64,000 nucleotides of DNA from a virus. The translations under genes and the position numbers were made by a program. Numbering within the stretch: the stretch's first letter is position 1; every line of letters begins with the position of its first letter. Shown piece by piece: positions 20,625-51,650 of this stretch. Location of the stretch: positions 9,254 through 73,253 of the IMG/VR virus record IMGVR_UViG_3300033156_000392; one strand, 5' to 3'. The notes under the pieces were generated by a model that ran no database searches, was not told the DNA's origin, and saw nothing but the letters and a program-made list of their open reading frames with translations.

Positions 20625-20645
20625 CTAAAAAAATAGTTACTTTAG
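20625..20645. repeat. 21-bp palindrome copy (degenerate)
   Basis: CTAAAAAAATAGTTACTTTAG, 3 mismatches to CTAAAATAACAGTTATTTTAG. Confidence 0.65.
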
Positions 20646-20756
20646 GAGTGTCTGTGTCACTTTTCATGAGTAACATTCTTCTGTTCTTGGACTTTGTCAC
20701 TTCGTCACTCTCCCAAGTTTCTTTTTTTTCACCCAGTTTTTAAGTCTAGTGATTGT

Positions 20757-20942
20757 TTATAAACTCTTGAAGAGTTCTCTGAGGTAGGAGAGCCTGAACC
20801 TCCGTTCCTTTCCACAGTGTGAGCAGTAGAGAAGAGTCGTCTTTCCGTTTCCTTCTTTCAGAGTCTCTTCTCTCGTCAGAATGTTGGTCGAGACTCTCAT
20901 GCATCTCTTGCATACCCACTTCAGAGCTATCATGTTTTTCAT
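20757..20942 (-). CDS. Small Zn-ribbon protein
   Basis: CKRC...CSHC. Confidence 0.55.
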   Translation of the reverse strand: MKNMIALKWVCKRCMRVSTNILTREETLKEGNGKTTLLYCSHCGKERRFRLSYLRELFKSL

Positions 20943-20944
20943 AT

Positions 20945-21334
20945 CTACTCCTCCCTTTTTCCTTTATCCGAGGACCAGAACGAAACGTACTTCCATCCTT
21001 TCTTCAGAAGCTTGGAGAGATTTACCTCCGTTTCCCACTTCAGCTCGACATCGTATCCGTATTTCTTGAAGATGTAGAGGACGAGATAGGGCTCTCTCAG
21101 CCACTCATCTCCGAGAGGCCAGAGATTGTCGGCTATGAGAAGAAGGGTCTTCAAGTCAGTCATAGTCAGATCCTTGTACTTCTTCTCCATCACGTCCAGT
21201 GCATCTTCGGAGGCTCTTTCGAAGGTGGAGAAGGAGTTCAGGACTCTCTCCCACTCTTCTTCCTCAATATGGATGTTTCCGAGATCCCATACCAGTTTCA
21301 GAGTGGGAACCAAGAGGTACTGATGAGTGCTCAT
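20945..21334 (-). CDS. Hypothetical protein
   Basis: Purine-rich coding strand, operon context. Confidence 0.55.
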   Translation of the reverse strand: MSTHQYLLVPTLKLVWDLGNIHIEEEEWERVLNSFSTFERASEDALDVMEKKYKDLTMTDLKTLLLIADNLWPLGDEWLREPYLVLYIFKKYGYDVELKWETEVNLSKLLKKGWKYVSFWSSDKGKREE

Positions 21335-21435
21335 GCTTCATGCACCTCGTCCTCAAAGGACGAACTCTGTTCTCTTGCTTCTGTCTTCTCCATCGGGTAA
21401 ACCTCTCCCAAGAGTAATAAAAGGGTTGTGGTTGT

Positions 21436-21996
21436 TTATAAACTGGGAAAGGACCATACGTCGGAATAACGGAGAAAGAGAGTCGTATAGTAGAGAGCGT
21501 CGTCCAGAGCTCTGTGTCTTCTTCCTTGCATCGGTACTTCTCGGTAGACAACACTGTTTATTTCTCTCGGTCTTACTCCTCTTGACGAGGCCAGCTGGTG
21601 CTTCAGACTTATGTGTCTATCCAAGAGGCGAAGAATGGATCCCTCATATCCTTTCATCTTTGCTTCTCGGAGAATTTGTTTCTTGTCATAGAAGCCCCAA
21701 GAGCACATGACGGTTTTCTCTTTCCCTATCCATTTCTCGAACTCTTGCATGGCCTCGTGGAATACTTTTCCTCCGTCCACGTCCTTCTGCTCTATGCCAG
21801 TGAGCCTAGTGCAGTACTCGGAAAGTACCGGATTGAGAACTGGTCTGACTAGGAGATTGAAGGTGTCCGCTCGCTCTGGTGGAGAGCCCAGCACTCTCAC
21901 GGCTCCTATCTCTATGATTTCGCTGCTGTGCCTTTGTTTTTCTTTATCCGCCCAGCACGTCGCCTCCAGATCGAATATTATGTACTGTGTCATCAT
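21436..21996 (-). CDS. DEDDh 3'-5' exonuclease (ERI1/KapD-like)
   Basis: FDLEATC, EIIEIGAV, WG.YD, HRALDDA. Confidence 0.9.
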   Translation of the reverse strand: MMTQYIIFDLEATCWADKEKQRHSSEIIEIGAVRVLGSPPERADTFNLLVRPVLNPVLSEYCTRLTGIEQKDVDGGKVFHEAMQEFEKWIGKEKTVMCSWGFYDKKQILREAKMKGYEGSILRLLDRHISLKHQLASSRGVRPREINSVVYREVPMQGRRHRALDDALYYTTLFLRYSDVWSFPSL

Positions 21997-22243
21997 ATCA
22001 CCTTTTGGTTCGGACCTGTATAAAACAGTGTCTGAAGATTTATAAACTTCTCTCTTTTTCTCTTCTAAGGAGAGAGGCTATCCTGTCGCAGATAGTACAG
22101 GGCAGGAGTCCTCTCTTTTTCCCTTCCTTGTTCAGAGACTCGTATCCGTGCTCAATGAGAGCGGCCATGTGAGAGAATTCTACCGAGTCAAGCTTCAGGA
22201 CGTAGTTCCCGAACAGAGTTCTTTTTATCTTCATGTCCTCACT

Positions 22244-22606
22244 TCAAGACTTTTTCTTGCCTCCCTCATACTTGAGTCTTAGAAGAGCGTTGGTCAGCTG
22301 GAAAACTATTCTGTTTCTCTCCTTCCAGCTCTCAGAGAGGAGAAGGAGTTCGAGAAGCTCGTGCACCAGGACTCTCTCGTTTGACGCCCCCACGATAAAG
22401 TGTCTCTCGTTCACTCCCTCTCTGACGTACCCCTCCCAGCCCTCTGTTCTCTCAAGCTCCACTCCGAGATCACAGAGCCCGAGTCTGTGCTGCCACTCCT
22501 CAAGGAGATACATGAGCTCCTCCATCGTCACTTCTCCCTCGCTCTTCTTGCACCACTCAGGCTTGTTACTCTTGATGAGTAACTTTCTCTTTTTGGCTCT
22601 ACTCAT
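22244..22606 (-). CDS. Hypothetical protein with degenerate zincin-like motif
   Basis: EWQHRLGL...VLVHELLE (second His of HExxH replaced). Confidence 0.45.
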   Translation of the reverse strand: MSRAKKRKLLIKSNKPEWCKKSEGEVTMEELMYLLEEWQHRLGLCDLGVELERTEGWEGYVREGVNERHFIVGASNERVLVHELLELLLLSESWKERNRIVFQLTNALLRLKYEGGKKKS

Positions 22607-23042
22607 GCTCCTCTCCTCTCTTCTTCTTTTTCAGACGAACTATCTTTGAGGCTATCAGGTAGACTATGGCCGCCTTGTGCTGTATCTCTTTCTCTTCCGG
22701 CTTCCTTGGATAGCAGGTGCCCATGACGTACAGAGCACTGGCGTACGCCACTATCTTGGAGAGACCCTTAACTTTTTTCTCACTTATCTCTAAACATCTC
22801 TTGAAGAGATCTATGTTCCCTAGATAGTACAGGTTCTTTCTCTTTCTCTTGATCTCTCCCTCTCTGACCATGTCTTCCAAGAGAGTCCCGAAGTACTGAC
22901 ACTCTCTGTCACCACATATCCAGCACTTTCTCTTTCTCACTTTCTCACCAGCTTGTTCCAGAACCTCTTTCCGACCTTCTTCAGGAGTCTGGCCGAGGGC
23001 TTCTTTCTCGAGACGGAGACGTATCCGTTGTACCAGCCCCAC
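22599..23042 (-). CDS. Hypothetical protein; true start probably internal
   Basis: CWIC..C motif; 5' part overlaps 22937..23119. Confidence 0.45.
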   Translation of the reverse strand: MGLVQRIRLRLEKEALGQTPEEGRKEVLEQAGEKVRKRKCWICGDRECQYFGTLLEDMVREGEIKRKRKNLYYLGNIDLFKRCLEISEKKVKGLSKIVAYASALYVMGTCYPRKPEEKEIQHKAAIVYLIASKIVRLKKKKRGEEHE

Positions 23043-23115
23043 AGGTACGTCTCTAGCAGTGTCTTGTCAATAGTGAGGAGAAGGATGGCTAGCTCTTTCT
23101 CTTCCCCGCTCTTTC

Positions 23116-23421: not shown

Positions 23422-23423
23422 TC

Positions 23424-26496: not shown

Positions 26497-26638
26497 CAGA
26501 CTCTATTACTCACATGGTTTTATAAGCGTATTCAAAGTTTATAAACAAGGAGAAGTGTTATAAGGCGTTATGCTTTCTTTCTCTCTCCCCTGAAAAGTAT
26601 TTAAGGACTGAATCAAGAAGTTAGAGAGGTGAGTACAA

Positions 26639-31229: not shown

Positions 31230-32330
31230 TCACTCCTCACTCTCGAAGACCATAGGAATTTCTATGTTCAGCATAGTTTCTCCCTCCTCTTCCTCCTCTA
31301 TAGTCTCCTCATCCAAGTCGTCTAAAGAAATTGTTTTTTTATCTTCTCTCTCCCTTCTGTCTCCGAGTACGGCAATCTCGTACGAAGTCCATTTCTGCTC
31401 AGCCATAAATCTTCTCAGCTTGAAGACGAAGACAACGGGAATAGGAAGGAGAGAGTATGCTCCGAGAAAGGGTAGAAGGACGTAGATGAATCCTGATATA
31501 AGAGTTCCGTAGAAGATTGCTGATATGAAGGCGTAGGGAAGCTCCTTTAGAAGTATCTCGAACATCTGGAGAGGCGTCTTCTTCTTGACTACTTTCTTCC
31601 ATCCAACGACGTCGTACTCCTCGTCTCCCTTTTTGAGAGTCCCTATGCTCTCCTCTCTCACCTCCGTCAGGTAGTTTCTCTCCGCCATCCCTGTCTTCAA
31701 CCACTTCACGTCTCCGGTCTTGTTTATGACCATTGAGTACTGGTAGAGCTCTCTGTTCAGGAGCTTGTTCTGATCTATTCTGGCCAGTGTCTGTATGGCT
31801 CTCTCTCCGGCGTACTGCTTCAGAAAGTCTCTGTCATACTTGTTGTCTGGACAGCTCTTGCAGACTATGAAGTCGAAGTTGGTTCTCATCTCTACTGGTA
31901 ATCCATGAAATCTATGTAATCCCATTATAGTGAGAATGTATCCATTAGTCCTATTACCTAATTCTCTGAATTCATGTCTTATTCTGAAGAACTTGGCCAA
32001 GGCTTCCTTCTCCTGTGGGACGAGAGTGACGTCGTCCACGAAGACTATCTGGATGGGTTTCTCGTTCAGTGCTCCGTAGCACAGATCGAGTCTTCCAGCC
32101 TTTATCTCGAGAGCGTTGACGTTCTTCTCTCCGTATATCTTGCATGCTTCCTCCACCAGCTTCCTAACTAGCTCCGACTTTCCAGCTCCTTGTCCACCGT
32201 AGAGAATGACGTTTCTCCAAATTATGTTGTTGGGCTTGTACGGGAGATCGTCTCTTACTGGTATCACCACTTTGTTGTAAGGGGGAAATATCTCTCTCAG
32301 AATCTCTCTGTTTCTCGGCTTAGGAGGCAC
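31230..32330 (-). CDS. P-loop ATPase (FtsK/HerA/A32-like) with C-terminal TM helices
   Basis: Walker A GGQGAGKS, Walker B IVFVDD, LP.EMRTNFD Arg-finger-like segment; two hydrophobic helices; acidic tail. Confidence 0.7.
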   Translation of the reverse strand: MPPKPRNREILREIFPPYNKVVIPVRDDLPYKPNNIIWRNVILYGGQGAGKSELVRKLVEEACKIYGEKNVNALEIKAGRLDLCYGALNEKPIQIVFVDDVTLVPQEKEALAKFFRIRHEFRELGNRTNGYILTIMGLHRFHGLPVEMRTNFDFIVCKSCPDNKYDRDFLKQYAGERAIQTLARIDQNKLLNRELYQYSMVINKTGDVKWLKTGMAERNYLTEVREESIGTLKKGDEEYDVVGWKKVVKKKTPLQMFEILLKELPYAFISAIFYGTLISGFIYVLLPFLGAYSLLPIPVVFVFKLRRFMAEQKWTSYEIAVLGDRREREDKKTISLDDLDEETIEEEEEGETMLNIEIPMVFESEE

Positions 32331-32806: not shown

Positions 32807-32827
32807 CTAAAATAACTGTTATTTTAG
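32807..32827. repeat. 21-bp perfect palindrome
   Basis: CTAAAATAAC-T-GTTATTTTAG; contains the stop codon of 32819..33040. Confidence 0.9.
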
Positions 32828-33036
32828 CACCTCCTTCTTTCTCTTTCTCACGTGTATCACCAGTGTTTTCTTCTCTCTGTCGACTACTATTCTCCCCTCA
32901 AGATCGTCTTCCTTCTTGAATCCGAGCTGTCTCAAGTAGAACCAAGCTATGGGGAAGATTCTTGACGCCTTCACTCTCACGAACTTCTTCCACTGCTTCT
33001 CTTCATATTTGTTTGTGGAGTCTGTATCCATTCCTA

Positions 33037-33387
33037 TCACGACCCAGACTTAACTACTCCGAGTATTCCCAAGTTGAGGATGACGCCAGCTATGAAGGCG
33101 AAGGCGAAGAGAACTGCCGTGAGATTGGTAGCCCATATGCCAGTGAGAGAGAAGACAAAAGGCTCCGCTACCTTCCAAGCGACTAAGAGCTGTAGGAGAA
33201 CTCCTATGAGAGGGATTAGAGCAAGCAAGACCGTCAAGCTCAAGAAGAAGCTGTAGAGAAGGGTTGCGAGAAAGCCCGAGACTCCTCCGTATACGAAGTA
33301 TCCAAGGGAGCCGAGAACTATCCATATTGGTGTGGCTTCCCAACTCTCCCATATTTTTTTCACTTTTGTCCACTCTCCTACGTTCAT
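33037..33387 (-). CDS. Multi-pass membrane protein
   Basis: Largely hydrophobic; TATA ~23 nt upstream of ATG. Confidence 0.65.
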   Translation of the reverse strand: MNVGEWTKVKKIWESWEATPIWIVLGSLGYFVYGGVSGFLATLLYSFFLSLTVLLALIPLIGVLLQLLVAWKVAEPFVFSLTGIWATNLTAVLFAFAFIAGVILNLGILGVVKSGS

Positions 33388-35575: not shown

Positions 35576-36226
35576 CTAATTTAATAGTTTCTTTAGCTCA
35601 TCTTTAGGGATGAGAGCAATCTTGTCTGAGAACTTCTTCTTACTCTTCAGGATGAAGGCCTCTCCCTTCCTCAAGACACGTCTGTACTCTCCGAGAAGCT
35701 TCTTTCTCCTCTCTACAGCCCTATCGAAGTCCAGCAGGATGTTGAGTATCTTTCTATCACTAAGGTCTTCTATGTCCCTTCCACAATTCAGAGACCAGTA
35801 GAACTTTTGTACTTTCTTCATAATCTTTATCCCTTCCAATATCACGTCACCGAACTCCTCCAGTCCTTTCTCTCTGAGCCCGAAGAAGAACGTGTCTGGA
35901 AGTCCTTCTGAGAGAACATCTATCCTCTGGACGGTCCGGTACTTGTATATTCCACCACGTCTCAGAGTGTACTCTGAGTAGATGGATATTCTATTCTCCC
36001 AAGCAATGGCAGAGGCTATGAGATGTACAGTTTCTTCCATTCTCTCCATAAGGTCTCTGAGAACGGCTGGACTGATCTCTTTCTCTATCTCTTTCAGTGT
36101 CACCACTTTCTCTCTCCTCTCCGATACCAGCCTCTTGTACTCCTTCTCTTTGAAGAGGTTCACACGTTTCTGGAGGAGGCTTAGAGCCTTCAGCCTCTTC
36201 TTGAGCTCTTGGTCAATCATCCTCAT
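35576..36226 (-). CDS. Array paralogue 8 (coiled-coil family)
   Basis: DQELKKRLKAL...MEETVHLIASAI...RRGGIY...KKFSDKIAL. Confidence 0.75.
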   Translation of the reverse strand: MRMIDQELKKRLKALSLLQKRVNLFKEKEYKRLVSERREKVVTLKEIEKEISPAVLRDLMERMEETVHLIASAIAWENRISIYSEYTLRRGGIYKYRTVQRIDVLSEGLPDTFFFGLREKGLEEFGDVILEGIKIMKKVQKFYWSLNCGRDIEDLSDRKILNILLDFDRAVERRKKLLGEYRRVLRKGEAFILKSKKKFSDKIALIPKDELKKLLN

Positions 36227-36863
36227 CTCTCCCAAGTGAGTTCAGAGCTATCTCTGTTGAGAACTTATCGATGATCTCCTCTCTCAGCTCGTCTATCTTC
36301 TGTTTCAGAGGGAGTGTTCGTCTGTCTATCTTTCTGAGCTCTCTGAGCAGCTTCTCCCCTTCTATGAGCGTTTCAAGAGTGTTGTCGAGTGTGTCAACCT
36401 TGAAGTAGATAGAGTCCTTCCATACCTTCTTGAAGAGCGTGTCCACGTGCTTTCTGAGCTTGAGAGAGTATCTGAGAAGCTCTTTCATCCTCTTCATCTT
36501 CGTCTTTCTGAGCAGCTCTCGCAAATCTTCTTCATCTATTACGAGAAGATGTACTCTCTCTGGAGAGTCAGACCAGAATATCCCTTCTCTCGGGACGTAT
36601 GTGATAGCGTAGTCATCTAACTCCACTTTCACTTTCTCCGTGACCATAGCACCAGCCACTCTGTGTATCAGACCTTCTATGGCGTCTGGAAGAGGTGTAA
36701 CTCTTTCCATCAGCTTCCTCCTGAGTGCAACCAGTTCATCAAGGAGCTCTCTCTTCTCCTCTTTCATTCTCTTCTTCTCGTCCTCTACGTACTTCTGGAA
36801 CTCCTTCTCAAGCCTCTGGAGAGTCTTGACTCTCCTCTGTAAATTCCTGTCCGTTTCTCCCAC
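36213..36863 (-). CDS. Array paralogue 7
   Basis: DRNLQRRVKTL...IEGLIHRVAGAM...VPREGIF...DKFSTEIALNSL. Confidence 0.75.
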   Translation of the reverse strand: MGETDRNLQRRVKTLQRLEKEFQKYVEDEKKRMKEEKRELLDELVALRRKLMERVTPLPDAIEGLIHRVAGAMVTEKVKVELDDYAITYVPREGIFWSDSPERVHLLVIDEEDLRELLRKTKMKRMKELLRYSLKLRKHVDTLFKKVWKDSIYFKVDTLDNTLETLIEGEKLLRELRKIDRRTLPLKQKIDELREEIIDKFSTEIALNSLGRDEDD

Positions 36864-41710: not shown

Positions 41711-42100
41711 CTATCTTCTTTTCAGGAGCTTCCAGAGTCCAAGCTTCCCTATGAAGGTCCAGTACTTTTCTCTCCCCAAGAATCTCTCTCCCCATCTCTC
41801 GGAGAAGGCTTTGGGGCAGTCTATGACGTGCTTCGGGAGAGTTTCTATGATGTATTTCTTCAGTTTCTCCTCGCTCTCGAAGCTCAAGTAGAAGCTCTTG
41901 TCTTTTCCGGCTACTCTGACTATCTCTGCTTTCTTGTCCAGAGCACCTCTCAGTATCTCTGACGCTATCGAAGGGTCTATGGACTTGAAGGGGAAGCTGA
42001 GTATCCTCCACTCTCCCTCGTAGGCTCTGTGAACCCAGAGAGCCTCTCTCCACGTGGGGAGGAGTCCCTCTATGTAGCACAGCAGTTTCTTCCTACTCAT
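41711..42100 (-). CDS. Hypothetical protein
   Basis: Follows a palindrome; ends KLGLWKLLKRR. Confidence 0.55.
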   Translation of the reverse strand: MSRKKLLCYIEGLLPTWREALWVHRAYEGEWRILSFPFKSIDPSIASEILRGALDKKAEIVRVAGKDKSFYLSFESEEKLKKYIIETLPKHVIDCPKAFSERWGERFLGREKYWTFIGKLGLWKLLKRR

Positions 42101-42122
42101 ACTTCTTCCTCGCTCTGTAATC

Positions 42123-42143
42123 CTAAAATAATCATTATTTTAG
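42123..42143. repeat. 21-bp perfect palindrome
   Basis: CTAAAATAAT-C-ATTATTTTAG. Confidence 0.9.
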
Positions 42144-42147
42144 CTCT

Positions 42148-42519
42148 CTACTGCTGGCTCGCTCCCTCTGACAGGATCTCAATCGCTATGTTCTGGTATA
42201 TCTCGTCCCAGTCCTCATCAGTCATTCCAAGCACTGTTTTGCTCTCTCTTATGAACTTCTTCGTGTACTTCTTCATATATTTGGAGAGGTACTTGATGAA
42301 CTCTATCATTTTCTTTCTCCTCTTGAATATGAAGAATATGTACGATTTCTTCACAAGCGGAATTTCTATTTCTCCCCTCAGTGCTATTCCTCTCTTCACT
42401 ATCTCCGTAAGCGTCTCACTCCTAAAGCCGTACGCTTTGAAAAACACTCCGTTAAAGCCGGAATTGTACCACAAGAGAGTCCCGAATATCTTCATTTCTC
42501 CTATCACTTTGTCCACCAT
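42148..42519 (-). CDS. Hypothetical protein, paralogue of 42562..42936
   Basis: LTEIVKRG, F.R..K..EF..YLS, LG...E shared; flanked on both sides by palindromes. Confidence 0.7.
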   Translation of the reverse strand: MVDKVIGEMKIFGTLLWYNSGFNGVFFKAYGFRSETLTEIVKRGIALRGEIEIPLVKKSYIFFIFKRRKKMIEFIKYLSKYMKKYTKKFIRESKTVLGMTDEDWDEIYQNIAIEILSEGASQQ

Positions 42520-42538
42520 CTCACCTCTCTTTCTTTTG

Positions 42539-42559
42539 CTAAAATAACAGTTATTTTAG
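42539..42559. repeat. 21-bp perfect palindrome
   Basis: CTAAAATAAC-A-GTTATTTTAG. Confidence 0.9.
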
Positions 42560-42561
42560 GA

Positions 42562-42936
42562 CTACTGAGTCCTCTCAGCAAGCCTGTTTACGACGACGTT
42601 GCTCTCTATAGTCTGGTACTCCTCCTCACTCAGTCCAAGTTTCTCTCTTCCTTCGAGTCTGAACTTCCTCGTAAGACTCCTCAGAACGGTGCTGAGGTAG
42701 AGGAGAAACTCTCTCAATTTCTCCATACGTTGAAACCGGAGAACCAGCGTCGCTCTCGACTTAGACCGAAACGCTGACGTGAACAGCAGGAGAGTCGCTC
42801 CTCTCTCCACACCCTCTTTCACTATGTCCGTGAGAGCCTGTGCCGGAAGGGTGTCTGCTCTGAAACTTATGTCTCTCTCCATCTCGAACCAGACCGGAAT
42901 CTTCTTCTCGGTCATTCTGCCTATCATCAGAGTCAT
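42562..42936 (-). CDS. Hypothetical protein, paralogue of 42148..42519
   Basis: LTDIVKEG...FQRMEKLREFLLYLS...LGLSEEEY; start taken at ATG 42936. Confidence 0.7.
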   Translation of the reverse strand: MTLMIGRMTEKKIPVWFEMERDISFRADTLPAQALTDIVKEGVERGATLLLFTSAFRSKSRATLVLRFQRMEKLREFLLYLSTVLRSLTRKFRLEGREKLGLSEEEYQTIESNVVVNRLAERTQ

Positions 42937-42955
42937 ATGCTCGCCTCTCTCTTCC

Positions 42956-44215
42956 TCACTCTTCCTTCCGTATTCTGGTAGTTCTCCCAAATGGTACTTC
43001 TTCCTCTGCCTTACCGTCTGGTGTCAGTATCCAGAGTGTCTCGTGTCTTCCTCTCCTCTCTGGGAAGTCTCCGTACCCGTCGGTGAAGTAAATCAGCAGT
43101 TTCGCTCTCTTCTTATGCTCTCTTATCCACTCGAAGACTGGTCTGAAGTCCGTCCCACCGTATCCAGTCCTCTTGAAGACTCTCTTTCTGGAGACCTTCT
43201 CAAGAGGTTCTGCCATCTTGATGCTGGCGTCGCACTCTATGTATGTCCCTCTCAGTGTGTCTCTGTGTATGTCGAATATTCTCCTAATCTCTCCCATAAA
43301 CTGAGAGTAGTCCTCGTCAGATATTGACCCAGACGTGTCCACCGCTATCACTATGTCTATCTTCTCCTTGAGTACTGATGGGAAGTATGTCCCGAGTGTC
43401 TGAGAACGTTTGTGCGGTCTTCGCCAAGTGTAGTCTTTTGGTATCTCTTTCGTGATGTATCTCCATAGCATCTGCTTCCACCCAAGTTTAGACGGTAGTA
43501 TCTTGTCTATCAGTTTCTGTAGTCCTGCTGGCAGTTTTCCCTGTACCTTAGCGAATGTGGCGGCCTTGATGGTGATGTCCTTCCAGAACTCTCCTATGTC
43601 CGTCTCCGGATGTTTAAAAGGCTCTTCGTTGCCTCCGGAGCCCTTCTCGTCCTTCTTTCCCTCGTTGTCTTCTCCCTCTTCGCCATAGAACCCTTCTTTC
43701 TTGTCGTTGTGGGTGTCGAACTGCTTCTGGAGTATTCCCTTTCCTTCTCTGTCTCCCTTTCCGTCTCCACCACTTCCAGAGACGGGTATGTGTATCTTCT
43801 TTGCGTTCTTCATCAAGTAGTCGTAGACCGCCTCTACCACCTTGCCTCTGAACGTCTCCAGCGGCTGTATTGCGAAGTCTGGCACTGGACTCCCAGACTC
43901 GTAGAGCATAGTGTTCACGACGTAGTCTCCCGCTATATTCCAGACGACTGGCTCTCTCCCCTGTCTCCTCAACAAGTGCTCAAGTATCAGATGGAGTATC
44001 TCGTGCTTTATGACGAACTGTAGTTCTATGTCTCCCAGCTTCTTCACGAAGTCTGGATTGTACGGTACGTTTCCGTATCTGTCTACTCCCATCGTCGGTA
44101 TCTTCTTGTTCTCTCTGAACTTCAGGTATGTGGCTATGTAGGAGAAGAACGGCTCTTCTTCCTGTAGGAGAACTATGGCTCTCGTTATTCTCTCTCTTGG
44201 AGTCAGTTGAAACAC
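42956..44215 (-). CDS. DUF2201-type HExxH metallopeptidase-like + vWA domain protein
   Basis: TMGVD, HEILH, WNIAGD..VN; vWA MIDAS DTSGS, GGTDF, YFTDG. Confidence 0.9.
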   Translation of the reverse strand: MFQLTPRERITRAIVLLQEEEPFFSYIATYLKFRENKKIPTMGVDRYGNVPYNPDFVKKLGDIELQFVIKHEILHLILEHLLRRQGREPVVWNIAGDYVVNTMLYESGSPVPDFAIQPLETFRGKVVEAVYDYLMKNAKKIHIPVSGSGGDGKGDREGKGILQKQFDTHNDKKEGFYGEEGEDNEGKKDEKGSGGNEEPFKHPETDIGEFWKDITIKAATFAKVQGKLPAGLQKLIDKILPSKLGWKQMLWRYITKEIPKDYTWRRPHKRSQTLGTYFPSVLKEKIDIVIAVDTSGSISDEDYSQFMGEIRRIFDIHRDTLRGTYIECDASIKMAEPLEKVSRKRVFKRTGYGGTDFRPVFEWIREHKKRAKLLIYFTDGYGDFPERRGRHETLWILTPDGKAEEEVPFGRTTRIRKEE

Positions 44216-46548: not shown

Positions 46549-46809
46549 TCAGTCTATTATTTTGATGTCTTTCTCCCACTCTCTCACGAGTTCTTCGACC
46601 GACTTGTTCTCTCCAAAAAACTCTGGATATTTCTTAATCTGTTCGATGATGGAAGTCGTCTTAGGCTTCTCTTCCGTCTCTATGTGGACGTTCGCTGGGA
46701 CTTTGTATTTCAGCGTTCCAGTGTCATCAACTACTGGGACTGTTTTCTCTTTGTCGATGTAAGGGAGTTCTTCGTACTCTCTACAGGAGATTAGTTTCCA
46801 TTCCGTCAC
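46549..46809 (-). CDS. Hypothetical protein sharing an N-terminal module with 47951..48706
   Basis: EW..I..REY..L.......P.VD..G.L...VPA. Confidence 0.6.
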   Translation of the reverse strand: MTEWKLISCREYEELPYIDKEKTVPVVDDTGTLKYKVPANVHIETEEKPKTTSIIEQIKKYPEFFGENKSVEELVREWEKDIKIID

Positions 46810-47074
46810 TTCTTCTTCACCTCCTATCTCTTTCTTTGTATGTCATTGAGGCTATGCCTCTCCATACTCGTGATGCTTCAGTCTGCTCTTCAGTATTCTC
46901 TCGGTCTGCTTCATATACTCCAGACGCCTGAGAACCCGCTTCTTCTTCTCTCTCAGTTTCTCCACTATGTCGTCAATCACTTCTACGAGTCTCTCTGCGT
47001 TCTTCTTGTACTCTTCTATGCTCTCCAGAACAGACTCTATTGTTTCTCTCTCCTTCTTGTTCAGAGAATCACCA

Positions 47075-47613: not shown

Positions 47614-47624
47614 ATCTCTATCTC

Positions 47625-47645
47625 CTAAAATAACTGTTTCTTTAC
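47625..47645. repeat. 21-bp palindrome copy
   Basis: CTAAAATAACTGTTTCTTTAC. Confidence 0.75.
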
Positions 47646-47897
47646 GACCATCTCAACTCTCCGAACATCACTATCTCAGGCGTTATGAGAGGCGTTATGG
47701 AGAGTGGTATGCCGGAGTGTCTCATAACGTCTATACCGTCAAATGAGCACTCTATCAGCACCAGAGTGGACGAGGAGAATAGTGTATTCCTCACCTCTCT
47801 CCTCTCTCCCTCTACTCCTACTCCACTCTCTCTAACGCCTCTAACGCCTCTCTTTCCTTCTTTTCTCACTATATCTCCTCTTTTCTCTCTACGAATG

Positions 47898-47918
47898 CTA
47901 AAAAAACAATTGCTTTAG
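47898..47918. repeat. 21-bp palindrome copy (degenerate)
   Basis: CTAAAAAAACAATTGCTTTAG. Confidence 0.6.
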
Positions 47919-47950
47919 GCTTCTCTCAGGCAGTTTCTACCGTAGGGCGG

Positions 47951-47971
47951 CTAAAATAACTGTTTCTTTAG
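47951..47971. repeat. 21-bp palindrome copy
   Basis: CTAAAATAACTGTTTCTTTAG. Confidence 0.8.
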
Positions 47972-48706
47972 TCTCCGTTTGCTATGAAAATGACTCTGTG
48001 CCATCGCTTCAGATGTATCTCCGGGTGCTGTGGGTGCTTTATTTTTTCCTTTTACGTAGATGCCTGTCAGTCTGTATTCTTCCAGATGTTCTATGTCTTG
48101 GACGGCTCTCACTCTGATTTCCTCCGCCTTGTGGTATCCGAGTTGCCACTTCACCGACTTTCTCAAATGAAGTCTCACTGCCTTCGGAATTCTCTGTCTC
48201 GGTGGTCTCTCCGGTACGAGGTACAGGTCTCCCTGTCTCTTTACTTCCTTCTCTCTCTTCAGGACTTCCTCTGGGAAGAGTTTCTTTAGTATCTCTGACG
48301 GCTTGTCTTTCTTTCCCTTCTCCCTGAAGTAGAGTCTGCTCTCTGTGTACTGCTCTCCGTCTTTCAGTACGACGAGACACACCGGGGTTGTTGTCTGGAA
48401 GTAATAAATCTCCAGACCGAACTTTCGGAAAATCTTTCCCTCTTTTGCTGATTGTAGTGTCTGGTAGTTTTTCACAAGGTATCCAGCGAGTACTCTCTGC
48501 GTCTCCTCGTCCACGTCTTTGAACAACTCTCTCACTTTCGTTAGAGCCCTCTCTCCGATGCTCTGCTTCTCTGAGACCCACTCTGCTGGCACTCTCCACC
48601 TCAGTTTCCCTTTCTCGTCCACGAAGGGTATTGCTCTCTCTTGCTTGCTCCAGTTTAGTCTATTGTACTCTCTCCTCCCTATCGTAGTCCACTCCATCGC
48701 TTTCAC
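47951..48706 (-). CDS. RQGD-motif hypothetical protein, probable frameshift near C-terminus
   Basis: RQGDLYLVP, H.A; adjacent frame after the T6 run (48042-48047) reads KIKHPQHPEIHLKRWHRV. Confidence 0.6.
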   Translation of the reverse strand: MKAMEWTTIGRREYNRLNWSKQERAIPFVDEKGKLRWRVPAEWVSEKQSIGERALTKVRELFKDVDEETQRVLAGYLVKNYQTLQSAKEGKIFRKFGLEIYYFQTTTPVCLVVLKDGEQYTESRLYFREKGKKDKPSEILKKLFPEEVLKREKEVKRQGDLYLVPERPPRQRIPKAVRLHLRKSVKWQLGYHKAEEIRVRAVQDIEHLEEYRLTGIYVKGKNKAPTAPGDTSEAMAQSHFHSKRRLKKQLF

Positions 48707-49516
48707 CTCCTCCCACTCTCTCTTGGAGTGAGTATGAACTCGCTCTCTCTCATCTGTAGCACTCTCTCAAGGCTCTCAAGGCTCTTCGTCGCTACTCCCT
48801 CTCCGTCTATCACGACTGCCAAGACGACTCTATCTCTGTCTCTCACGATCTCCCTCTCTCCGTTTCTTCTCTCATCAGAGCCTTGCTCTCTGGAGGTATC
48901 TTGATATTTGCTCCAGAGTGCTCTCACGGTCTCTATCCATCCACCTCACCTGTGTGCTATCTGTATCCTTCTCAGACACAAGGGACAGACCGGACGTCCT
49001 CTCCAGTCTCTCATAGAGTCTGCAGTCCAGACTCTCTCGCAGGTGGGACACTTCACTATCTCTATCCGTCTGCCCGTGAGTCTCTCGCTCTCGTTAAGAA
49101 GTTCTCCTTCCATATCTCTCACCTCTCTACTCCCATATATCGTGGTTGTTAACACAGTCGCAACAGTTCTGTACTATCCAGTCTTCGTCCGTCTCGCTTG
49201 CTCTGTACTCATTCCCACATACCGGGCACGTCCACACTTCTTCTTTCTCCATTTATCTCACTCCTTCTCTCACAGTCTCTTCTTCTCCACCTTCTCCATC
49301 AGACTGTCTCCGACTTTGATTTCCTCGCTCCCGACGTAGTTTATCCAGAGTTTGCCCCGTACCTCTTCCACGAATACCAGCCCTATATGTTCACTGCTGA
49401 AGGCGTTCTCTCTTCTCACCTCAAGACAGACGTAGTTCCCTTTCTTCATCTCGTCTATCCGAATCTCTAAACCCATTCACATCACCTCTCTATCTCTTCG
49501 TCTCTCTAAGAAGTTG

Positions 49517-49537
49517 CTAAAATAACAGTTATTTTAT
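49517..49537. repeat. 21-bp palindrome copy
   Basis: CTAAAATAACAGTTATTTTAT. Confidence 0.85.
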
Positions 49538-50221: not shown

Positions 50222-50275
50222 TTCAAACTAACACAAAAAATAAAGGAAAGGGAGAGGTTGGGGCGTGTTCTCTCC

Positions 50276-50581
50276 CTATAACTTCTTAGGTCTCACTAAG
50301 ACTTGGGCGGGGTTCTGTTTGTATGACACTCGCCAGTTTGGATATTTTCTCTTCAACTGTTGTGCTACACTCCTCACGTTCTCTGTTTTGATTGGTGCGG
50401 TTGTGTGTTCTTTGAAAACGTCAAAAGGAATAGCCACGAACTCATCAGTTTTCTTGACGTTCTGTATAGCGTTGTTTATGGCAGTCTTCAGCGTCTCATC
50501 AATATCCCACTTTGTCGAGATTGGTTTAACGACAACCTCGAGCGTCAACTGAACCCCTTCATTTTTGTTGTTGTTCTTCAT
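50276..50581 (-). CDS. Hypothetical protein, candidate regulator
   Basis: GGTGA RBS; BRE/TATA GAAAGA-CTTAAATA upstream; T-tract downstream. Confidence 0.6.
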   Translation of the reverse strand: MKNNNKNEGVQLTLEVVVKPISTKWDIDETLKTAINNAIQNVKKTDEFVAIPFDVFKEHTTAPIKTENVRSVAQQLKRKYPNWRVSYKQNPAQVLVRPKKL

Positions 50582-50627
50582 TTTCGTCTCACCGAGTAGG
50601 TATCGACACGTGAGTATTTAAGTCTTT

Positions 50628-50648
50628 CTAAAATAATAATTTCTTTAG
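50628..50648. repeat. 21-bp palindrome copy abutting a BRE/TATA
   Basis: CTAAAATAATAATTTCTTTAG directly upstream of the 50581 promoter. Confidence 0.75.
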
Positions 50649-50869
50649 GCAATTGTCGAAGTGTGCCTTCTTTATATACTCTCGTAAAATAAGACTAATG
50701 TTATGTTCTAACGCCTTTATAACGCCTTTAACGTTTTGTCTGGGTTTGGGGGAAAATGAGACAAAACCCCTCTTTAAATACTCTTTAGACAGTTGTCGAC
50801 ATTACGCTTTATGGGTGAATTGAGCAAAAGACTTTTAACCCTACACGAGAAGGGTTAGCGGTGATGTGA

Positions 50870-51529
50870 ATGGTAAGGCCACGAAAAGACGCAACAATCG
50901 GGGTCTTGGAAGCGTACGAGATTTACAGAACCAACCCAACCCGAGCCATAGAGGGTTTGGGTGGGTTGTCGGCGAAGACGTGGTTGAGAAGATTTCGAGA
51001 GAACGGATTAAAGATAAGACAACAGCGTAAGCGGAAGGTACACAATAACGACTATGTGAACGTTGAGGAGTTGGAGAAGTGGGTTAGCGTTGATATAGAC
51101 GAGATAACCTTTAAGCCCCTCCACACCAAGCATCAACGTGTTGTTAAAGAACTCGATGCCCAACTCGTAAAGGTCGGACTACACGAAGACGATGAGCATA
51201 AAGCGTTTGTGTTGATTACGCCGAGAACGTTAAGCAAACGAATAGCACAACGGATTTTAGAGATTTACAGAGAGAAGGGTTTTAGCACAGTAGCGGATAA
51301 GGAGTTTGAAGCAGAGTTTAACGTTCGACACGGCACACGTGGGAAAGCACTTGTAGAAAACATAACGGCACGAATTAAAAACCTTGTCTATATGAACCTG
51401 CGACTCTTCAAGAAGGACGAGAGAAGCAGAGTTATCCAAGACTTATACGAGAACGCAATAAAGACACTATGCGATGAGCCACCAGCCGAGATTAAACGAT
51501 TAGTTGAAGACCCCCGAGCACTCTTTTAG
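50870..51529 (+). CDS. HTH-containing hypothetical protein
   Basis: GLSAKTWLRRFRENGLKIR HTH-like; AAAAGACTTTTAA promoter and GGTGA RBS upstream. Confidence 0.6.
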   Translation: MVRPRKDATIGVLEAYEIYRTNPTRAIEGLGGLSAKTWLRRFRENGLKIRQQRKRKVHNNDYVNVEELEKWVSVDIDEITFKPLHTKHQRVVKELDAQLVKVGLHEDDEHKAFVLITPRTLSKRIAQRILEIYREKGFSTVADKEFEAEFNVRHGTRGKALVENITARIKNLVYMNLRLFKKDERSRVIQDLYENAIKTLCDEPPAEIKRLVEDPRALF

Positions 51530-51532
51530 CAC

Positions 51533-51561
51533 TTCTTTTTTTCTTTTTCTTTTTTTCTTTT
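51533..51561 (+). terminator. Archaeal oligo-T terminator
   Basis: Long T-tracts directly after the 51529 stop. Confidence 0.7.
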
Positions 51562-51629
51562 CTCTCCTCTAACTCTCTACACGTCATAACACTTCATAAC
51601 ACCCCTTATCTTCTCCTACACTAAAAAAA

Positions 51630-51650
51630 TTCAAATAATGATTATTTTAA
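51630..51650. repeat. 21-bp palindrome copy (degenerate)
   Basis: TTCAAATAAT-G-ATTATTTTAA. Confidence 0.65.

What the first reader, a model, noticed from the sequence alone, without database searches (positions are those of the whole stretch)
20625..51650. Ten copies of a 21-bp palindrome CTAAAATAAY-N-RTTATTTTAG, mostly at gene junctions
Seen at 20625, 32807, 42123, 42539, 47625, 47898, 47951, 49517, 50628 and 51630. Three are perfect palindromes, and 42123 has a compensatory C-G to T-A change that keeps symmetry. Most sit at or over the stop of one leftward gene and 10-40 nt before the next start; 42123/42539 bracket exactly one gene; 50628 abuts a BRE/TATA. I saw none in the replication or structural operons. 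Inference: operator of a dimeric viral regulator, or alternatively cassette-boundary recombination sites or RNA hairpin processing sites.
Basis: partly seen in the sequence, partly recalled or inferred. Interest (0 to 1): 0.78.

Follow-up and report, generated by a model that had tools for sequence, protein, structure and literature searches.

The report
Palindromic control sites, archaeal virus
A tailed virus of a probably heat-loving archaeon carries at least a dozen copies of one 21-letter mirror-image DNA word, mostly squeezed between its early genes, which most likely is the docking site of a paired regulator protein that switches those genes; this is a fresh example of a known kind of viral control system.

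Summary
All 10 listed sites exist, against 0 expected. It is incomplete, though. A weight-matrix scan of the whole 73-kb genome adds three solid members: 7996 inside PolB, 31322 inside an ATPase gene, and 35576 at a gene junction. It also adds two weak ones. Site 51630 is doubtful.

The unit is CTAAA-NN-AAY-N-RTT-NN-TTTAG. Its half-site occurs 23 times against 0.9 expected, and 21 of the 23 lie in the 15 listed 21-bp sites, 19 of them as inverted pairs with a 1-nt spacer. Ten of 12 solid sites lie at gene junctions or in non-coding DNA of the leftward early block. One lies 5 nt upstream of the TATA box of the first early gene.

RNA hairpins are too weak to count (0 kcal/mol at 80 °C, and the proteome looks hyperthermophilic). 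Only 2 of 12 sites carry a real oligo-T run. The single gene-sized indel between strains does not map to a site.

Best reading (about 0.5): dispersed operators of a dimeric DNA-binding regulator that gates early transcription. Main rival (about 0.25): self-sufficient repeat promoters like the halovirus HF2 intergenic repeats. No binding or transcript data exist, and no relatives could be fetched. This scan has noted similar palindrome-tagged promoter cassettes in other archaeal viruses. Verdict: new variant of a known kind.

The parts
7996..8016 (-). Solid family member inside the PolB gene. Sense strand reads CTAAAGAAATAGTTTCTTTAG; 9 of 10 arm positions are symmetric.
   Evidence: PWM 26.4 bits. 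No codon-shuffle round reached 23. It encodes PKEIVSL, which aligns without a gap to Thermococcales PolB.
20625..20645 (-). Site in the 151-nt gap before the 43-aa ORF 20474-20605, 19 nt before its ATG. It lies about 70-90 nt downstream of a canonical promoter (GTTTATAAAC at 20755, TATA at 20736). Its sense-strand 3' half has a T7 run.
31322..31342 (-). Solid member inside the 366-aa ATPase-like gene (31230-32330), 92 nt before its stop. Here the T7 run is on the antisense strand.
   Evidence: PWM 26.4 bits
32807..32827 (-). Perfect palindrome at a gene junction. The stop codon of ORF 32819-33040 lies inside it. The next start (GTG at 32795) is 11 nt downstream.
35576..35596 (-). Solid member at a junction in the paralogue array. 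Its terminal TAG is the stop of ORF 35576-36235, and the next GTG is 13 nt downstream. The 3' half is diverged (ATTAAATTAG).
   Evidence: PWM 23.5 bits
42123..42143 (-). Perfect palindrome with T/A inner bases. It is 4 nt after the stop of ORF 42148-42519 and 22 nt before the ATG at 42100.
42539..42559 (-). Perfect palindrome, 2 nt after the stop of ORF 42562-42990 and 19 nt before the ATG at 42519. A step in strain divergence starts just to its right: 1 difference in 42072-42564 against 25 in 42565-43158.
47625..47645 (-). Junction site. The stop of ORF 47642-47869 lies inside it, and the ATG at 47613 is 11 nt downstream. The 5' half is GTAAAGAAAC.
47898..47918 (-). Junction site, 28 nt before the GTG at 47869. 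It is in tandem with 47951, with centres 53 bp apart. The sense strand has a T7 run.
47951..47971 (-). Site forming the last 7 codons (LKKQLF*) of ORF 47951-48706. Its TAG is the stop codon.
49517..49537 (-). Junction site with 9 of 10 positions symmetric. The ATG at 49476 is 40 nt downstream.
50628..50648 (-). Site in the divergent control region. It ends 5 nt upstream of the canonical TATA of the first leftward gene.
50614..50622 (-). Canonical TATA-like 9-mer CTTAAATAC, 32 nt before the ATG at 50581.
   Evidence: 10.3 bits with a matrix trained on the virus's other TATA boxes. This 9-mer was itself one of the 15 training sequences.
51630..51650 (+). Doubtful member (16.8 bits). It lies between the oligo-T terminator of gene 50870-51529 and the terS/terL promoter. 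It is part of a roughly 60-nt block conserved in locus L009, where the symmetry is lost.
14567..14587 (+). Weak hit inside a glycosyltransferase gene (17.5 bits). It may be chance.
   Evidence: 8 of 300 codon-shuffle rounds reach 17
61678..61698 (+). Weak hit inside the 907-aa ORF (19.5 bits). It may be chance.
   Evidence: 4 of 300 rounds reach 19
50276..50581 (-). Candidate regulator: the first leftward gene (101 aa), next to site 50628. The predicted topology is helix-strand-helix-helix-strand-strand, which is winged-helix-like.
   Evidence: AlphaFold2 single sequence, pLDDT 62. Foldseek gave no hit at E<=0.001, though many weak rows are winged-helix domains. No Pfam or PHROG family.
7053..7310 (-). 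Candidate regulator: an 85-aa winged helix-turn-helix protein downstream of PolB.
   Evidence: Pfam HTH_24 1.1e-4, just over its cut-off; MarR_2 4.3e-4, below its cut-off. PHROG transcriptional-regulator families. Sigma70_r4-like match below cut-off.
50870..51529 (+). Candidate regulator: a 219-aa protein, the first rightward gene of the divergent region. The N-terminus has only sub-threshold HTH_28/HTH_32 hits.

Best explanation
The 21-bp element CTAAA-NN-AAY-N-RTT-NN-TTTAG is a dispersed operator: the double-stranded DNA binding site of one dimeric, sequence-specific DNA-binding protein. That protein is most likely virus-encoded. The best candidates are the 101-aa product of the first early gene, 50276-50581, and the 85-aa winged-helix protein, 7053-7310.

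The sites lie at the head of the leftward early block, between its cistrons, and in the leader of the small ORF 20474-20605. Occupancy would gate transcription in two ways. At 50628 it would sit on or next to the BRE/TATA of the first early promoter. At the junction sites it would compete with TBP for the TATA-like A/T arm, or obstruct RNA polymerase reading through into the next cassette. This would give coordinated switching of the early genes.

Shown: the sites, their symmetry, their fixed spacing, their placement, and the weakness of any RNA structure. Inferred: that a protein binds, which protein it is, and whether the effect is repression, activation or a roadblock.
For: 1. There are 12 sites at or above 23 bits, against a best of 17.4 in 200 Markov genomes and no round reaching 23 in 300 codon-shuffles.
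2. The half-site CTAAARNAAY occurs 23 times on both strands against 0.9 expected. 21 of the 23 lie in the 15 listed 21-bp sites, 19 of them as inverted pairs with exactly 1 nt between.
3. Positions 2, 3, 4, 8 and 9 are invariant in 24 of 24 half-sites. Positions 6-7 vary freely. What is shared is a symmetric bipartite pattern, not general AT-richness.
4. The PolB copy (7996) has 9 of 10 symmetric arm positions. It codes for a helix that aligns without a gap to Thermococcales PolB. The symmetry is therefore laid over a coding sequence, not inserted into it.
5. 10 of 12 solid sites lie in non-coding DNA or on a stop codon, although about 89% of the genome is coding.
6. One site ends 5 nt upstream of a canonical TATA in the divergent control region. 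One lies between a canonical promoter and its gene. Two are in tandem 53 bp apart.
7. The virus has no TBP, TFB or ParB_N of its own. It does have small winged-helix candidates, one of them adjacent to site 50628.
8. RNA folding gives -4 to -6 kcal/mol at 37 °C for the three perfect sites only, and 0 for every site at 80 °C.
9. Precedents exist. Inverted repeats overlapping BRE in virus-specific early-gene regulatory sequences of Sulfolobales viruses are read as repressor sites (PMC11065993, passages read). Repressor sites in promoters and in short intergenic spaces are known in mycobacteriophages (PMC9283540, passages read).
Against: - No binding, footprint, transcript-end or expression data exist. 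No RNA run holds this virus.
- The A-flavour arm CTAAAATAA scores 7.6 bits (CTAAAAAAA 8.5) on a matrix of the virus's own TATA boxes. The distances from that arm to the next start codon (23, 23, 25, 31, 31, 34 ...) resemble those of the canonical promoters (21, 21, 33, 33). The sites could therefore simply be promoters.
- There is a weak polarity that a symmetric dimer does not explain. G at half-site position 6 occurs in 7 of 12 gene-distal halves but 2 of 12 gene-proximal halves. The sense strand ends in TTTTAG at all 9 original leftward sites.
- The fold assignment of the 101-aa candidate is low-confidence: pLDDT 62 and no significant structural match.
- Junction placement may partly reflect only that an A/T palindrome with stop codons is hard to fit inside genes.
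Confidence: 0.5

Rival explanations
1. Self-sufficient repeat promoters. Each site is the TATA-bearing core of a virus-specific early promoter recognised by host TBP/TFB, as in the intergenic repeats of halovirus HF2. It would fire leftward into the next gene, or in both directions at the perfect palindromes. The symmetry would be incidental, or would reflect two back-to-back TATA boxes.
For: - The arm CTAAAATAA/CTAAAAAAA scores 7.6-8.5 bits on a matrix trained on 15 canonical TATA boxes of this virus, whose own scores range from 2.9 to 11.8.
- With the sense-strand 5' arm taken as TATA, the distance from TATA end to start codon is 23, 23, 25, 31, 31, 34, 40, 52, 58 nt. Canonical promoters here give 21, 21 (leaderless) and 33, 33 (leader beginning at the Shine-Dalgarno sequence).
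- The distribution is complementary. GTTTATAAAC-type promoters lie at 20.7-33.4 kb, and the palindromes mostly at 32.8-50.6 kb.
- HF2 intergenic repeats all showed promoter activity, and class II repeats worked in both orientations (PMC8707807, abstract and Results 3.1-3.5 read).
Against: - On the sense strand only the 3 perfect sites have a TATA-like arm. The other 6 original sites score no more than 4.6 bits there, and their better arm points antisense.
- The G-flavour arm CTAAAGAAA scores 3.8 bits, yet it is used in both arms of the PolB copy.
- Strict pairing of half-sites at 1-nt spacing is not a promoter property.
- 50628 and 20625 already have canonical promoters next to them.
- 47951 and 47898 are in tandem with no gene between them.
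- 7996 and 31322 lie inside genes.
Confidence: 0.25
2. Transcription terminators or attenuators. The T-run of the sense-strand 3' arm (TTATTTTAG or TTTTTTTAG) would stop or pause archaeal RNA polymerase after each cistron. The symmetric partner would make the signal bidirectional.
For: - Sites follow stop codons closely.
- All 9 original leftward sites end in TTTTAG on the sense strand.
- Two sites carry T7. Only 7 runs of T5 or longer exist on the sense strand of the 31-kb leftward block, and 2 of them are these sites.
- The two deep intragenic copies avoid T4+ on the sense strand.
- That archaeal RNA polymerase terminates at oligo-T is recalled knowledge.
Against: - 7 of the 9 original sites have only T2AT4.
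- The virus's clear terminator after gene 50870-51529 is T7-C-T5-C-T7-C-T4.
- A terminator needs neither a conserved sequence nor a conserved A-rich partner arm.
- 50628 has no leftward gene upstream to terminate.
- 35576 has no T-run.
- Genes after the sites have Shine-Dalgarno sequences typical of internal cistrons.
Confidence: 0.08
3. Recombination or cassette-boundary sites. The repeats would be substrates for homologous or site-specific exchange that shuffles single early genes, as proposed for PeSL elements of T4-type phages.
For: - Pairs of sites bracket single small ORFs: 42123/42539 and 47625/47898.
- In strain-variant contigs, divergence jumps from 1 difference in 493 nt to 25 in 594 nt just to the right of site 42539.
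- The virus encodes RadA and an ERCC4-family nuclease.
Against: - The only gene-sized indel between strains (46548->46833, which removes ORF 46549-46809) has no site at either end.
- The listed loose ends (39946, 41969, 44965, 48833, 48873, 49887) are not at sites. That table was truncated, with 46 more rows not shown.
- 21 bp is short for homologous exchange.
- The PolB copy is not an insertion.
- No integrase or recombinase was seen in the proteins scanned. That is about 100 of roughly 134 ORFs, so the scan was not exhaustive.
Confidence: 0.07
4. Binding sites of a protein with a non-transcriptional job, such as genome compaction, replication initiation or segregation. This would be analogous to parS or iteron sites.
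For: - The same symmetry evidence applies as for the operator reading.
- Six of the ten original sites cluster within 4 kb of the lowest-GC divergent region, which is also the minimum of cumulative GC skew.
- Intragenic copies exist.
Against: - No ParB_N domain is present.
- Sites track gene junctions of one transcription block, not one locus.
- None lies in the first 9.2 kb or near the terminal repeats.
Confidence: 0.07
5. RNA hairpins in the leftward transcripts that act as processing or stability signals.
For: - The three perfect sites can form 8-9 bp A-U stems at 37 °C, at -4 to -6 kcal/mol.
- G at position 6 of the sense 5' arm would still pair with U as a wobble pair.
Against: - Six of nine sense-strand sites fold at -2.5 kcal/mol or weaker at 37 °C, most sites are unfolded at 60 °C, and all are unfolded at 80 °C.
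- Position 7/15 is mismatched in the five G-flavour sites.
- The proteome composition indicates a hyperthermophilic host: IVYWREL fraction 0.461, about 97 °C by the Zeldovich relation, which is a recalled formula.
- The stem never extends into the flanks.
Confidence: 0.03

Closest known systems
Intergenic repeat (IR) promoters of halovirus HF2 and other haloferacalesviruses (Russ, Pfeiffer & Dyall-Smith 2021, PMC8707807; abstract and Results read)
   Same: Both are short sequence families private to one tailed archaeal virus lineage. Both recur in intergenic DNA, are AT-rich and tied to transcription units. Class II IRs are active in both orientations.
   Different: HF2 IRs are 58 or 29 bp and not palindromic. 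They carry a mapped BRE/TATA and a start site inside the repeat. Here the unit is a strict 21-bp palindrome, and only some arms are TATA-like. Two copies lie inside genes, and two copies sit beside separate canonical promoters.
Virus-specific early-gene (anti-defence gene) regulatory sequences of Sulfolobales viruses, some with inverted repeats over the BRE (PMC11065993; passages read)
   Same: One conserved regulatory sequence sits in front of many small, unrelated early genes. The inverted repeats are interpreted as the site of a virus-encoded repressor.
   Different: Those motifs are 30-100 bp and centred on a strong canonical BRE/TATA in front of single genes. Here a canonical TATA accompanies only 1 of 12 sites, and most sites lie between cistrons that carry Shine-Dalgarno sequences.
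Operators and 'stoperators' of Cluster A mycobacteriophages such as L5 (PMC9283540; abstract and introduction passages read)
   Same: There are many copies of one repressor site, both at a promoter and in short intergenic spaces across the genome. They are proposed to block initiation and elongation respectively.
   Different: Stoperators are asymmetric 13-mers bound by a monomer and are strictly orientation-dependent. They belong to temperate bacteriophages. Here the sites are palindromic 21-mers with at most weak polarity, in an archaeal virus with terminal repeats and no integrase seen.
KorB/KorA global operator network of plasmid RK2 (PMC11790492; passages read; the count of 12 OB sites is recalled, not seen)
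   Same: Palindromic operators for a dimeric regulator are scattered over a mobile genome, some at promoters and some far from them.
   Different: KorB is a ParB-family CTPase clamp, and no ParB_N domain is present here. The operator sequence and length differ, and the host is bacterial.
PeSL promoter/stem-loop cassettes of T4-type phages (PMC2839356, PMC4122927; search listing and start of abstracts only)
   Same: Repeated regulatory motifs flank small variable early genes.
   Different: PeSLs combine a bacterial early promoter with a stem-loop terminator, and indels between close relatives map to them. Here the hairpin is not stable, and the one indel seen does not map to a site.

Membership tests
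HF2-type intergenic repeat promoters | A conserved repeat private to the virus, recurring in intergenic DNA | tested here: met
   10 of 12 solid sites are non-coding or on a stop codon. Strict and degenerate patterns give only single, unrelated hits in IMG/VR contigs: 3 and 74 contigs, none with more than one site.
HF2-type intergenic repeat promoters | BRE/TATA inside the repeat at the canonical distance from a start site | tested here: inconclusive
   The A-flavour arm scores 7.6-8.5 bits and the G-flavour arm 3.8 bits on the virus's own TATA matrix. On the sense strand only 3 of 9 sites have a TATA-like arm. Distances to start codons are compatible. No start sites are known.
HF2-type intergenic repeat promoters | Promoter activity in a reporter, and mapped transcription start | not testable with these tools
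   No RNA run holds the virus.
HF2-type intergenic repeat promoters | Conservation of repeat sequence and position in related viruses | tested here: inconclusive
   The only fetched relative is L009, a 1475-bp fragment. It covers only the doubtful 51630 element, which is conserved as sequence but not as a palindrome.
Dimeric-regulator operator (generic) | Two inverted half-sites at fixed spacing, with symmetric conservation | tested here: met
   21 of 23 half-sites lie in the listed 21-bp sites, 19 of them as inverted pairs with a 1-nt spacer. Five positions are invariant in 24 of 24 halves.
Dimeric-regulator operator (generic) | A cognate DNA-binding protein that binds the site | not testable with these tools
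   There are candidates only: an 85-aa wHTH, a 101-aa protein with winged-helix-like topology at pLDDT 62, and a 219-aa protein with sub-threshold HTH hits.
Dimeric-regulator operator (generic) | At least one site overlapping or abutting a core promoter | tested here: met
   50628 ends 5 nt upstream of TATA 50614-50622, which is 32 nt from the ATG at 50581.
Mycobacteriophage stoperators | Asymmetric 13-mer bound by a monomer | tested here: not met
   The sites are 21-bp palindromes.
Mycobacteriophage stoperators | Orientation strictly correlated with the direction of transcription | tested here: inconclusive
   G at position 6 occurs in 7 of 12 distal halves against 2 of 12 proximal halves. 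31322 has the opposite polarity.
Mycobacteriophage stoperators | Sites at a promoter and in short intergenic spaces across the genome | tested here: met
Archaeal oligo-T terminator | A run of 5 or more T on the transcribed sense strand after a gene | tested here: not met
   Only 20625 and 47898 have T7. Seven of the nine original sites have T2AT4, and 35576 has none.
PeSL-type mobile regulatory cassettes | Gene gain and loss breakpoints between close relatives map to the repeats | tested here: inconclusive
   One divergence step falls at 42539. One gene-sized indel and six listed loose ends do not fall at sites. The table was truncated.
PeSL-type mobile regulatory cassettes | A stable stem-loop terminator in the repeat | tested here: not met
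   0 kcal/mol at 80 °C for all sites, and -2.5 or weaker at 37 °C for six of nine sense-strand sites.
KorB/ParB-type operator network | A ParB-family protein encoded by the element | tested here: not met
   No PF02195 match in the whole 73-kb genome at E<=0.1.

The most novel reading that the evidence does not exclude
An archaeal counterpart of the 'stoperator' or global-operator networks of bacterial phages and plasmids. One small viral winged-helix dimer would bind at least 12 dispersed palindromes. These lie at the first early promoter, between early single-gene cassettes, in front of the virus's own RNA-polymerase-subunit-like gene, and even inside the PolB and ATPase genes. The dimer would shut down or gate the whole early programme of a tailed virus of a hyperthermophilic archaeon, by competing with TBP and blocking elongating RNA polymerase.
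Probability: 0.3. Interest if true: 0.65.

Novelty: new variant of a known kind. Interest (0 to 1): 0.45.

Why it matters
Temporal control of transcription in tailed archaeal viruses is almost unexplored. For viruses of hyperthermophilic euryarchaea it has not been studied at all, as far as I know.

This genome offers a compact, testable regulon. It has one 21-bp palindrome in at least 12 copies, two or three small candidate regulators, and a second, separate promoter class (GTTTATAAAC-N10-TATA).

If one protein binds all the sites, that would be a simple system for studying how an archaeal RNA polymerase is blocked or redirected along a polycistronic unit. They would then be marked as a co-regulated early set, which is the class where anti-defence and host-takeover genes are usually found.

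If the sites are only promoters, the finding is an ordinary further example of viral repeat promoters.

Tried and rejected
**Host.** I first assumed a haloarchaeal host, because the PolB tblastn hits were Halorubrum viruses at about 25% identity. I rejected this. The proteome is not acidic (K+R 16.5% against D+E 14.7%), it uses AGA/AGG/ATA codons, and its IVYWREL fraction is 0.461. The best solved-structure matches of PolB and RadA are Thermococcales proteins. The host genus remains unknown.

**Expression.** No RNA holder is listed. Only two DNA runs, kept as contigs, hold the stretch.

**Relatives.**
- The megablast of 12 kb against phage records found nothing.
- TerL as a single protein and as a profile gave only one distant locus (23% identity) in IMG/VR, then none, one 1475-bp JGI fragment (L009), and none in GTDB genomes.
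- The DUF2201 protein gave one 29%-identity contig without a PolB match.
- RadA against genome contigs found nothing.
- Earlier-findings look-alikes: none.

**Other tests that led nowhere.**
- The bacterial-type promoter and terminator scan was uninformative: 11 terminator-like sites against 9.7 expected.
- Pfam, PHROGs and the Atlas gave nothing for the 101-aa and 219-aa candidates.
- I considered the Phr site of Thermococcales (TAAC...GTTA, recalled). I set it aside because the recalled spacing differs. This was not tested.

**Ideas considered and down-weighted.**
- An antisense-promoter reading, because the better TATA-like arm points rightward at 9 of 9 original leftward sites. I kept it only as a minor variant of the promoter rival. 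No rightward ORF with the genome's purine-rich coding bias follows the sites.
- Polarity as strong evidence. With all 12 sites it is 7/12 against 2/12, which is not significant.

**Limits.** Supplementary files of the papers were not opened. They may hold motif logos (PMC11065993) or repeat coordinates (PMC8707807) that bear on the comparison.

Full report
**What the window is.** The window is bases 9254-73253 of a complete 73,253-bp virus record with 114-bp direct terminal repeats and 48.6% G+C. It encodes a family-B DNA polymerase, a large terminase, a Mu-type portal, RadA, an ERCC4 nuclease, an Alba homologue and many small ORFans. So it is a tailed virus of an archaeon.

The proteome is not acidic: K+R is 16.5% and D+E 14.7%. 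Arginine is coded mostly by AGA/AGG and isoleucine by ATA. The IVYWREL fraction of 50 ORFs of 150 aa or more is 0.461, which the Zeldovich relation (recalled) converts to about 97 °C. Among solved structures the best PolB matches are Thermococcales polymerases (226 bits, against 107 for Sulfolobus PolB1). The best RadA match is Pyrococcus furiosus. I therefore treat the host as a hyperthermophilic, probably euryarchaeal, organism. This is an inference.

The DNA is held by two runs labelled seawater and sediment metagenome. No RNA run is listed.

**The observation.** 100 dinucleotide-preserving shuffles gave none.

I built a weight matrix from the nine leftward sites and scanned the whole genome. 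This recovered the nine sites at 29.7-33.9 bits (leave-one-out 26.3-32.7).
- 7996-8016 inside the PolB gene (26.4 bits)
- 31322-31342 inside the 366-aa ATPase-like gene (26.4 bits)
- 35576-35596 at a gene junction in the paralogue array (23.5 bits)
- 61678 (19.5) and 14567 (17.5), weaker hits inside genes
- 51630, which scores only 16.8

Two null models set the scale. In 200 second-order Markov genomes the best score averaged 10.5 and never exceeded 17.4. In 300 rounds of codon shuffling of 75 CDS, 8 rounds reached 17, 4 reached 19 and none reached 23.

So there are 12 solid members and 3 doubtful ones. The statement that the replication and structural operons have none is wrong at this sensitivity. 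The first 9.2 kb of the genome, which lies outside the window, has no member.

**Anatomy.** Over the 24 half-sites of the 12 solid members the pattern is C(21) T(24) A(24) A(24) A(23) R(A14, G9) W(T13, A10) A(24) A(24) Y(C15, T9). The full site is CTAAA-NN-AAY-N-RTT-NN-TTTAG.

The half-site CTAAARNAAY occurs 23 times on both strands, against 0.9 ± 0.9 expected. 21 of these lie in the 15 listed 21-bp sites, 19 of them as inverted pairs with exactly one base between.

The inner Y/R positions are symmetric in 7 of 12 sites. That is about what base frequencies predict, so the 'compensatory change' at 42123 carries no statistical weight.

The palindrome never extends into the flanks.

**Placement.** My rough gene calls make 89% of the genome coding. 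Even so, 10 of the 12 solid sites lie in non-coding DNA or on a stop codon of the 31-kb leftward gene block.
- The upstream stop codon is inside the site at 32807, 47625 and 49517.
- At 35576 and 47951 the terminal TAG of the site is itself the stop codon.
- The stop is 2-4 nt upstream at 42123 and 42539.
- The next start codon follows after 11, 11, 13, 19, 19, 22, 28, 40 and 46 nt.
- 47951 is followed after 32 nt by 47898.

Nearly every gene in the block, including those after the sites, is preceded by a GGAGGTGA-type Shine-Dalgarno sequence. The block is therefore read largely as polycistronic RNA.

Three contexts are informative.
1. Site 50628 lies in the divergent control region. It ends 5 nt upstream of a canonical TATA (CTTAAATAC, 50614-50622), which is 32 nt from the ATG of the first leftward gene.
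2. Site 20625 lies about 70-90 nt downstream of a canonical promoter and 19 nt before the 43-aa ORF 20474-20605. I did not test that.
3. The two deep intragenic copies lie 455 nt and 92 nt before the stops of PolB and the ATPase gene.

**The virus's ordinary promoters and terminators.** A second repeat, GTTTATAAAC, has 12 matches at one mismatch or fewer, against 0.5 expected. It sits 9-10 nt upstream of CTTWWAWA TATA boxes. These are followed after 21 nt by a start codon (leaderless) or after 33 nt by a start codon whose Shine-Dalgarno sequence begins at the predicted start site. These promoters lie mostly at 20.7-33.4 kb, while the palindromes lie mostly at 32.8-50.6 kb.

A clear terminator follows gene 50870-51529 (T7-C-T5-C-T7-C-T4). 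A hairpin plus T6 follows gene 50276-50581.

The virus has no TBP, TFB or ParB_N of its own.

**RNA hairpin: disfavoured.** At 37 °C only the three perfect sites fold appreciably (-4 to -6 kcal/mol). Six of nine sense-strand sites are at -2.5 or weaker. At 60 °C most are open, and at 80 °C all are. The five G-flavour sites also have a mismatch in mid-stem. In a hyperthermophile this is not a credible RNA signal.

**Terminator: minor.** All nine original sites end in TTTTAG on the sense strand, two have T7, and the deep intragenic copies avoid T4+ on the sense strand. This keeps some attenuating side-effect possible. But seven of the nine have only T2AT4, and 35576 has no T-run. 50628 has nothing upstream to terminate. 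A terminator also explains neither the conserved A-rich partner arm nor the fixed spacing.

**Recombination boundary: weak.** Contigs of a strain variant show 1 difference in 42072-42564 and 25 in 42565-43158. That is a divergence step just to the right of site 42539. Against this, the only gene-sized indel (46548->46833, removing ORF 46549-46809) has no site at either end. The listed loose ends (39946, 41969, 44965, 48833, 48873, 49887) are not at sites either. The tables were truncated, so this is not exhaustive.

The PolB copy encodes PKEIVSL, which aligns without a gap to the corresponding helix of Thermococcales PolB. It is therefore not an inserted element.

**Promoter versus operator.** A matrix trained on 15 canonical TATA boxes of this virus, none taken from the palindrome, gives CTAAAATAA 7.6 bits and CTAAAAAAA 8.5. 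These are at the low end of the training range (2.9-11.8). It gives CTAAAGAAA only 3.8.

If the sense-strand 5' arm is the TATA box, the distance from TATA end to start codon is 23, 23, 25, 31, 31, 34, 40, 52, 58 nt. That resembles the 21/33-nt geometry of the canonical promoters. HF2 intergenic repeats are proven promoters (PMC8707807). This keeps the promoter reading alive.

Several points count against it.
- On the sense strand only the three perfect sites have a TATA-like arm.
- The better arm points antisense at all nine original sites.
- The PolB copy uses the poor G-flavour arm twice and is still 9/10 symmetric.
- Two sites already have canonical promoters beside them.
- Two sites are in tandem with no gene between.

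What all members share is symmetry at fixed spacing, not TATA quality. That is the signature of a dimeric DNA-binding protein.

Published parallels exist. Inverted repeats over the BRE occur in virus-specific early-gene regulatory sequences of Sulfolobales viruses (PMC11065993). Repressor sites occur both at promoters and in short intergenic spaces in mycobacteriophages (PMC9283540). Palindromic KorA/KorB operators occur on RK2 (PMC11790492).

**Candidates for the protein.**
- The 85-aa product of 7053-7310 matches HTH_24 just over its cut-off, MarR_2 below its cut-off, and regulator PHROGs.
- The 101-aa product of the first leftward gene (50276-50581) has no family. A single-sequence AlphaFold2 model (pLDDT 62) has the helix-strand-helix-helix-strand-strand order of a winged helix. 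Foldseek gives no significant match, though many weak rows are winged-helix domains.
- The 219-aa product of 50870-51529 has only sub-threshold HTH hits.

None of these is tied to the site by any evidence beyond adjacency.

**Conservation elsewhere.** The strict and the degenerate pattern hit 3 and 74 IMG/VR contigs, each at one place only. The window's own record may be left out of that scan. So the family is private to this lineage in that collection.

The only relative fetched is L009, a 1475-bp fragment with TerL 70% identical. It covers just the 51630 region. A block of about 60 nt is conserved there, but the element is one base shorter and no longer symmetric. This is why I doubt that 51630 belongs to the family.

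**Verdict.** The finding is real and larger than described. I put about 0.5 on dispersed operators of a dimeric regulator of early transcription, and 0.25 on plain repeat promoters. The remainder is split among terminator, recombination, non-transcriptional binding and RNA hairpin.

Notes from this scan on other genomes describe similar palindrome-tagged promoter cassettes in archaeal tailed viruses. Together with the HF2 and Sulfolobales precedents, this makes the finding a new variant of a known kind. The unusual points are these:
- strict palindromy without an accompanying canonical TATA at 11 of 12 sites
- placement between Shine-Dalgarno-led cistrons
- copies written into the PolB and ATPase coding sequences
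- a probably hyperthermophilic host

Noticed in passing
window 20755, 21434, 22038, 26537, 28540, 29746, 33409, 33428, 51825; variants at 7352-7361 and 10886-10895: There is a second repeat family. The 10-bp palindrome GTTTATAAAC sits 9-10 nt upstream of CTTWWAWA TATA boxes, which are 21 or 33 nt from the start codon. At 10837-10935 one central copy serves two divergent TATA boxes. It is the subject of another first-stage note.
   Followed up: partly
whole genome: Proteome composition (IVYWREL fraction 0.461, AGA/AGG/ATA codons, purine-rich coding strands) points to a hyperthermophilic host. So do the Thermococcales-like PolB and RadA. As far as I recall, a complete tailed virus genome of such a host would itself be uncommon.
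   Followed up: partly
window 4250-4522 (-): The virus encodes an Alba (Sac10b) chromatin-protein homologue, with Pfam PF01918 above its cut-off.
   Followed up: no
window 12289-13912 (+): A RadA/Rad51 recombinase is followed directly by an ERCC4 (XPF/Hef-type) nuclease with HhH motifs. This looks like a recombination module in a virus with PolB.
   Followed up: no
window 51620-51680 and L009 55-115: A block of about 60 nt of non-coding DNA (AAAAAATTCAAAT...TTTTAA...CCCGGTTCTRGTCAC..CACAC) is conserved between this virus and a relative whose TerL is 70% identical. It lies between an oligo-T terminator and the terS/terL promoter. Its function is unknown; a small RNA or a packaging-related site is possible.
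   Followed up: partly
window 50643-50661 and 50785-50803 (+): A 19-nt direct repeat, CTTTAG-RCARTTGTCGA, occurs twice in the divergent control region. One copy continues from the right arm of site 50628. The other lies 2 nt after the rightward TATA CTTTAAATA.
   Followed up: no
window 46549-46832: Strain-variant contigs in two runs lack exactly one small gene (ORF 46549-46809 plus 23 nt). This is a clean single-gene presence/absence polymorphism with no repeat at its ends.
   Followed up: no
window 48676-49342: Summed contig depth in both runs jumps to 107-118, against about 3-12 elsewhere, with loose ends at 48833 and 48873. A short stretch here seems to be shared with something far more abundant in those samples.
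   Followed up: no
window 47660-47690, 50700-50735, 51560-51600, 51680-51700, 26550-26570: Short words CATAACAC and TAACGCC (GGCGTTA on the other strand) recur in several non-coding stretches (read by eye). They were not counted against chance.
   Followed up: no
window 50222-50275 (-): After the first leftward gene comes a GGAGAG...CTCTCC inverted repeat, followed by TTTATTTTTT. The next gene's ATG is 15 nt further on, with no Shine-Dalgarno sequence. This is possibly a terminator that doubles as the TATA of a leaderless transcript.
   Followed up: no
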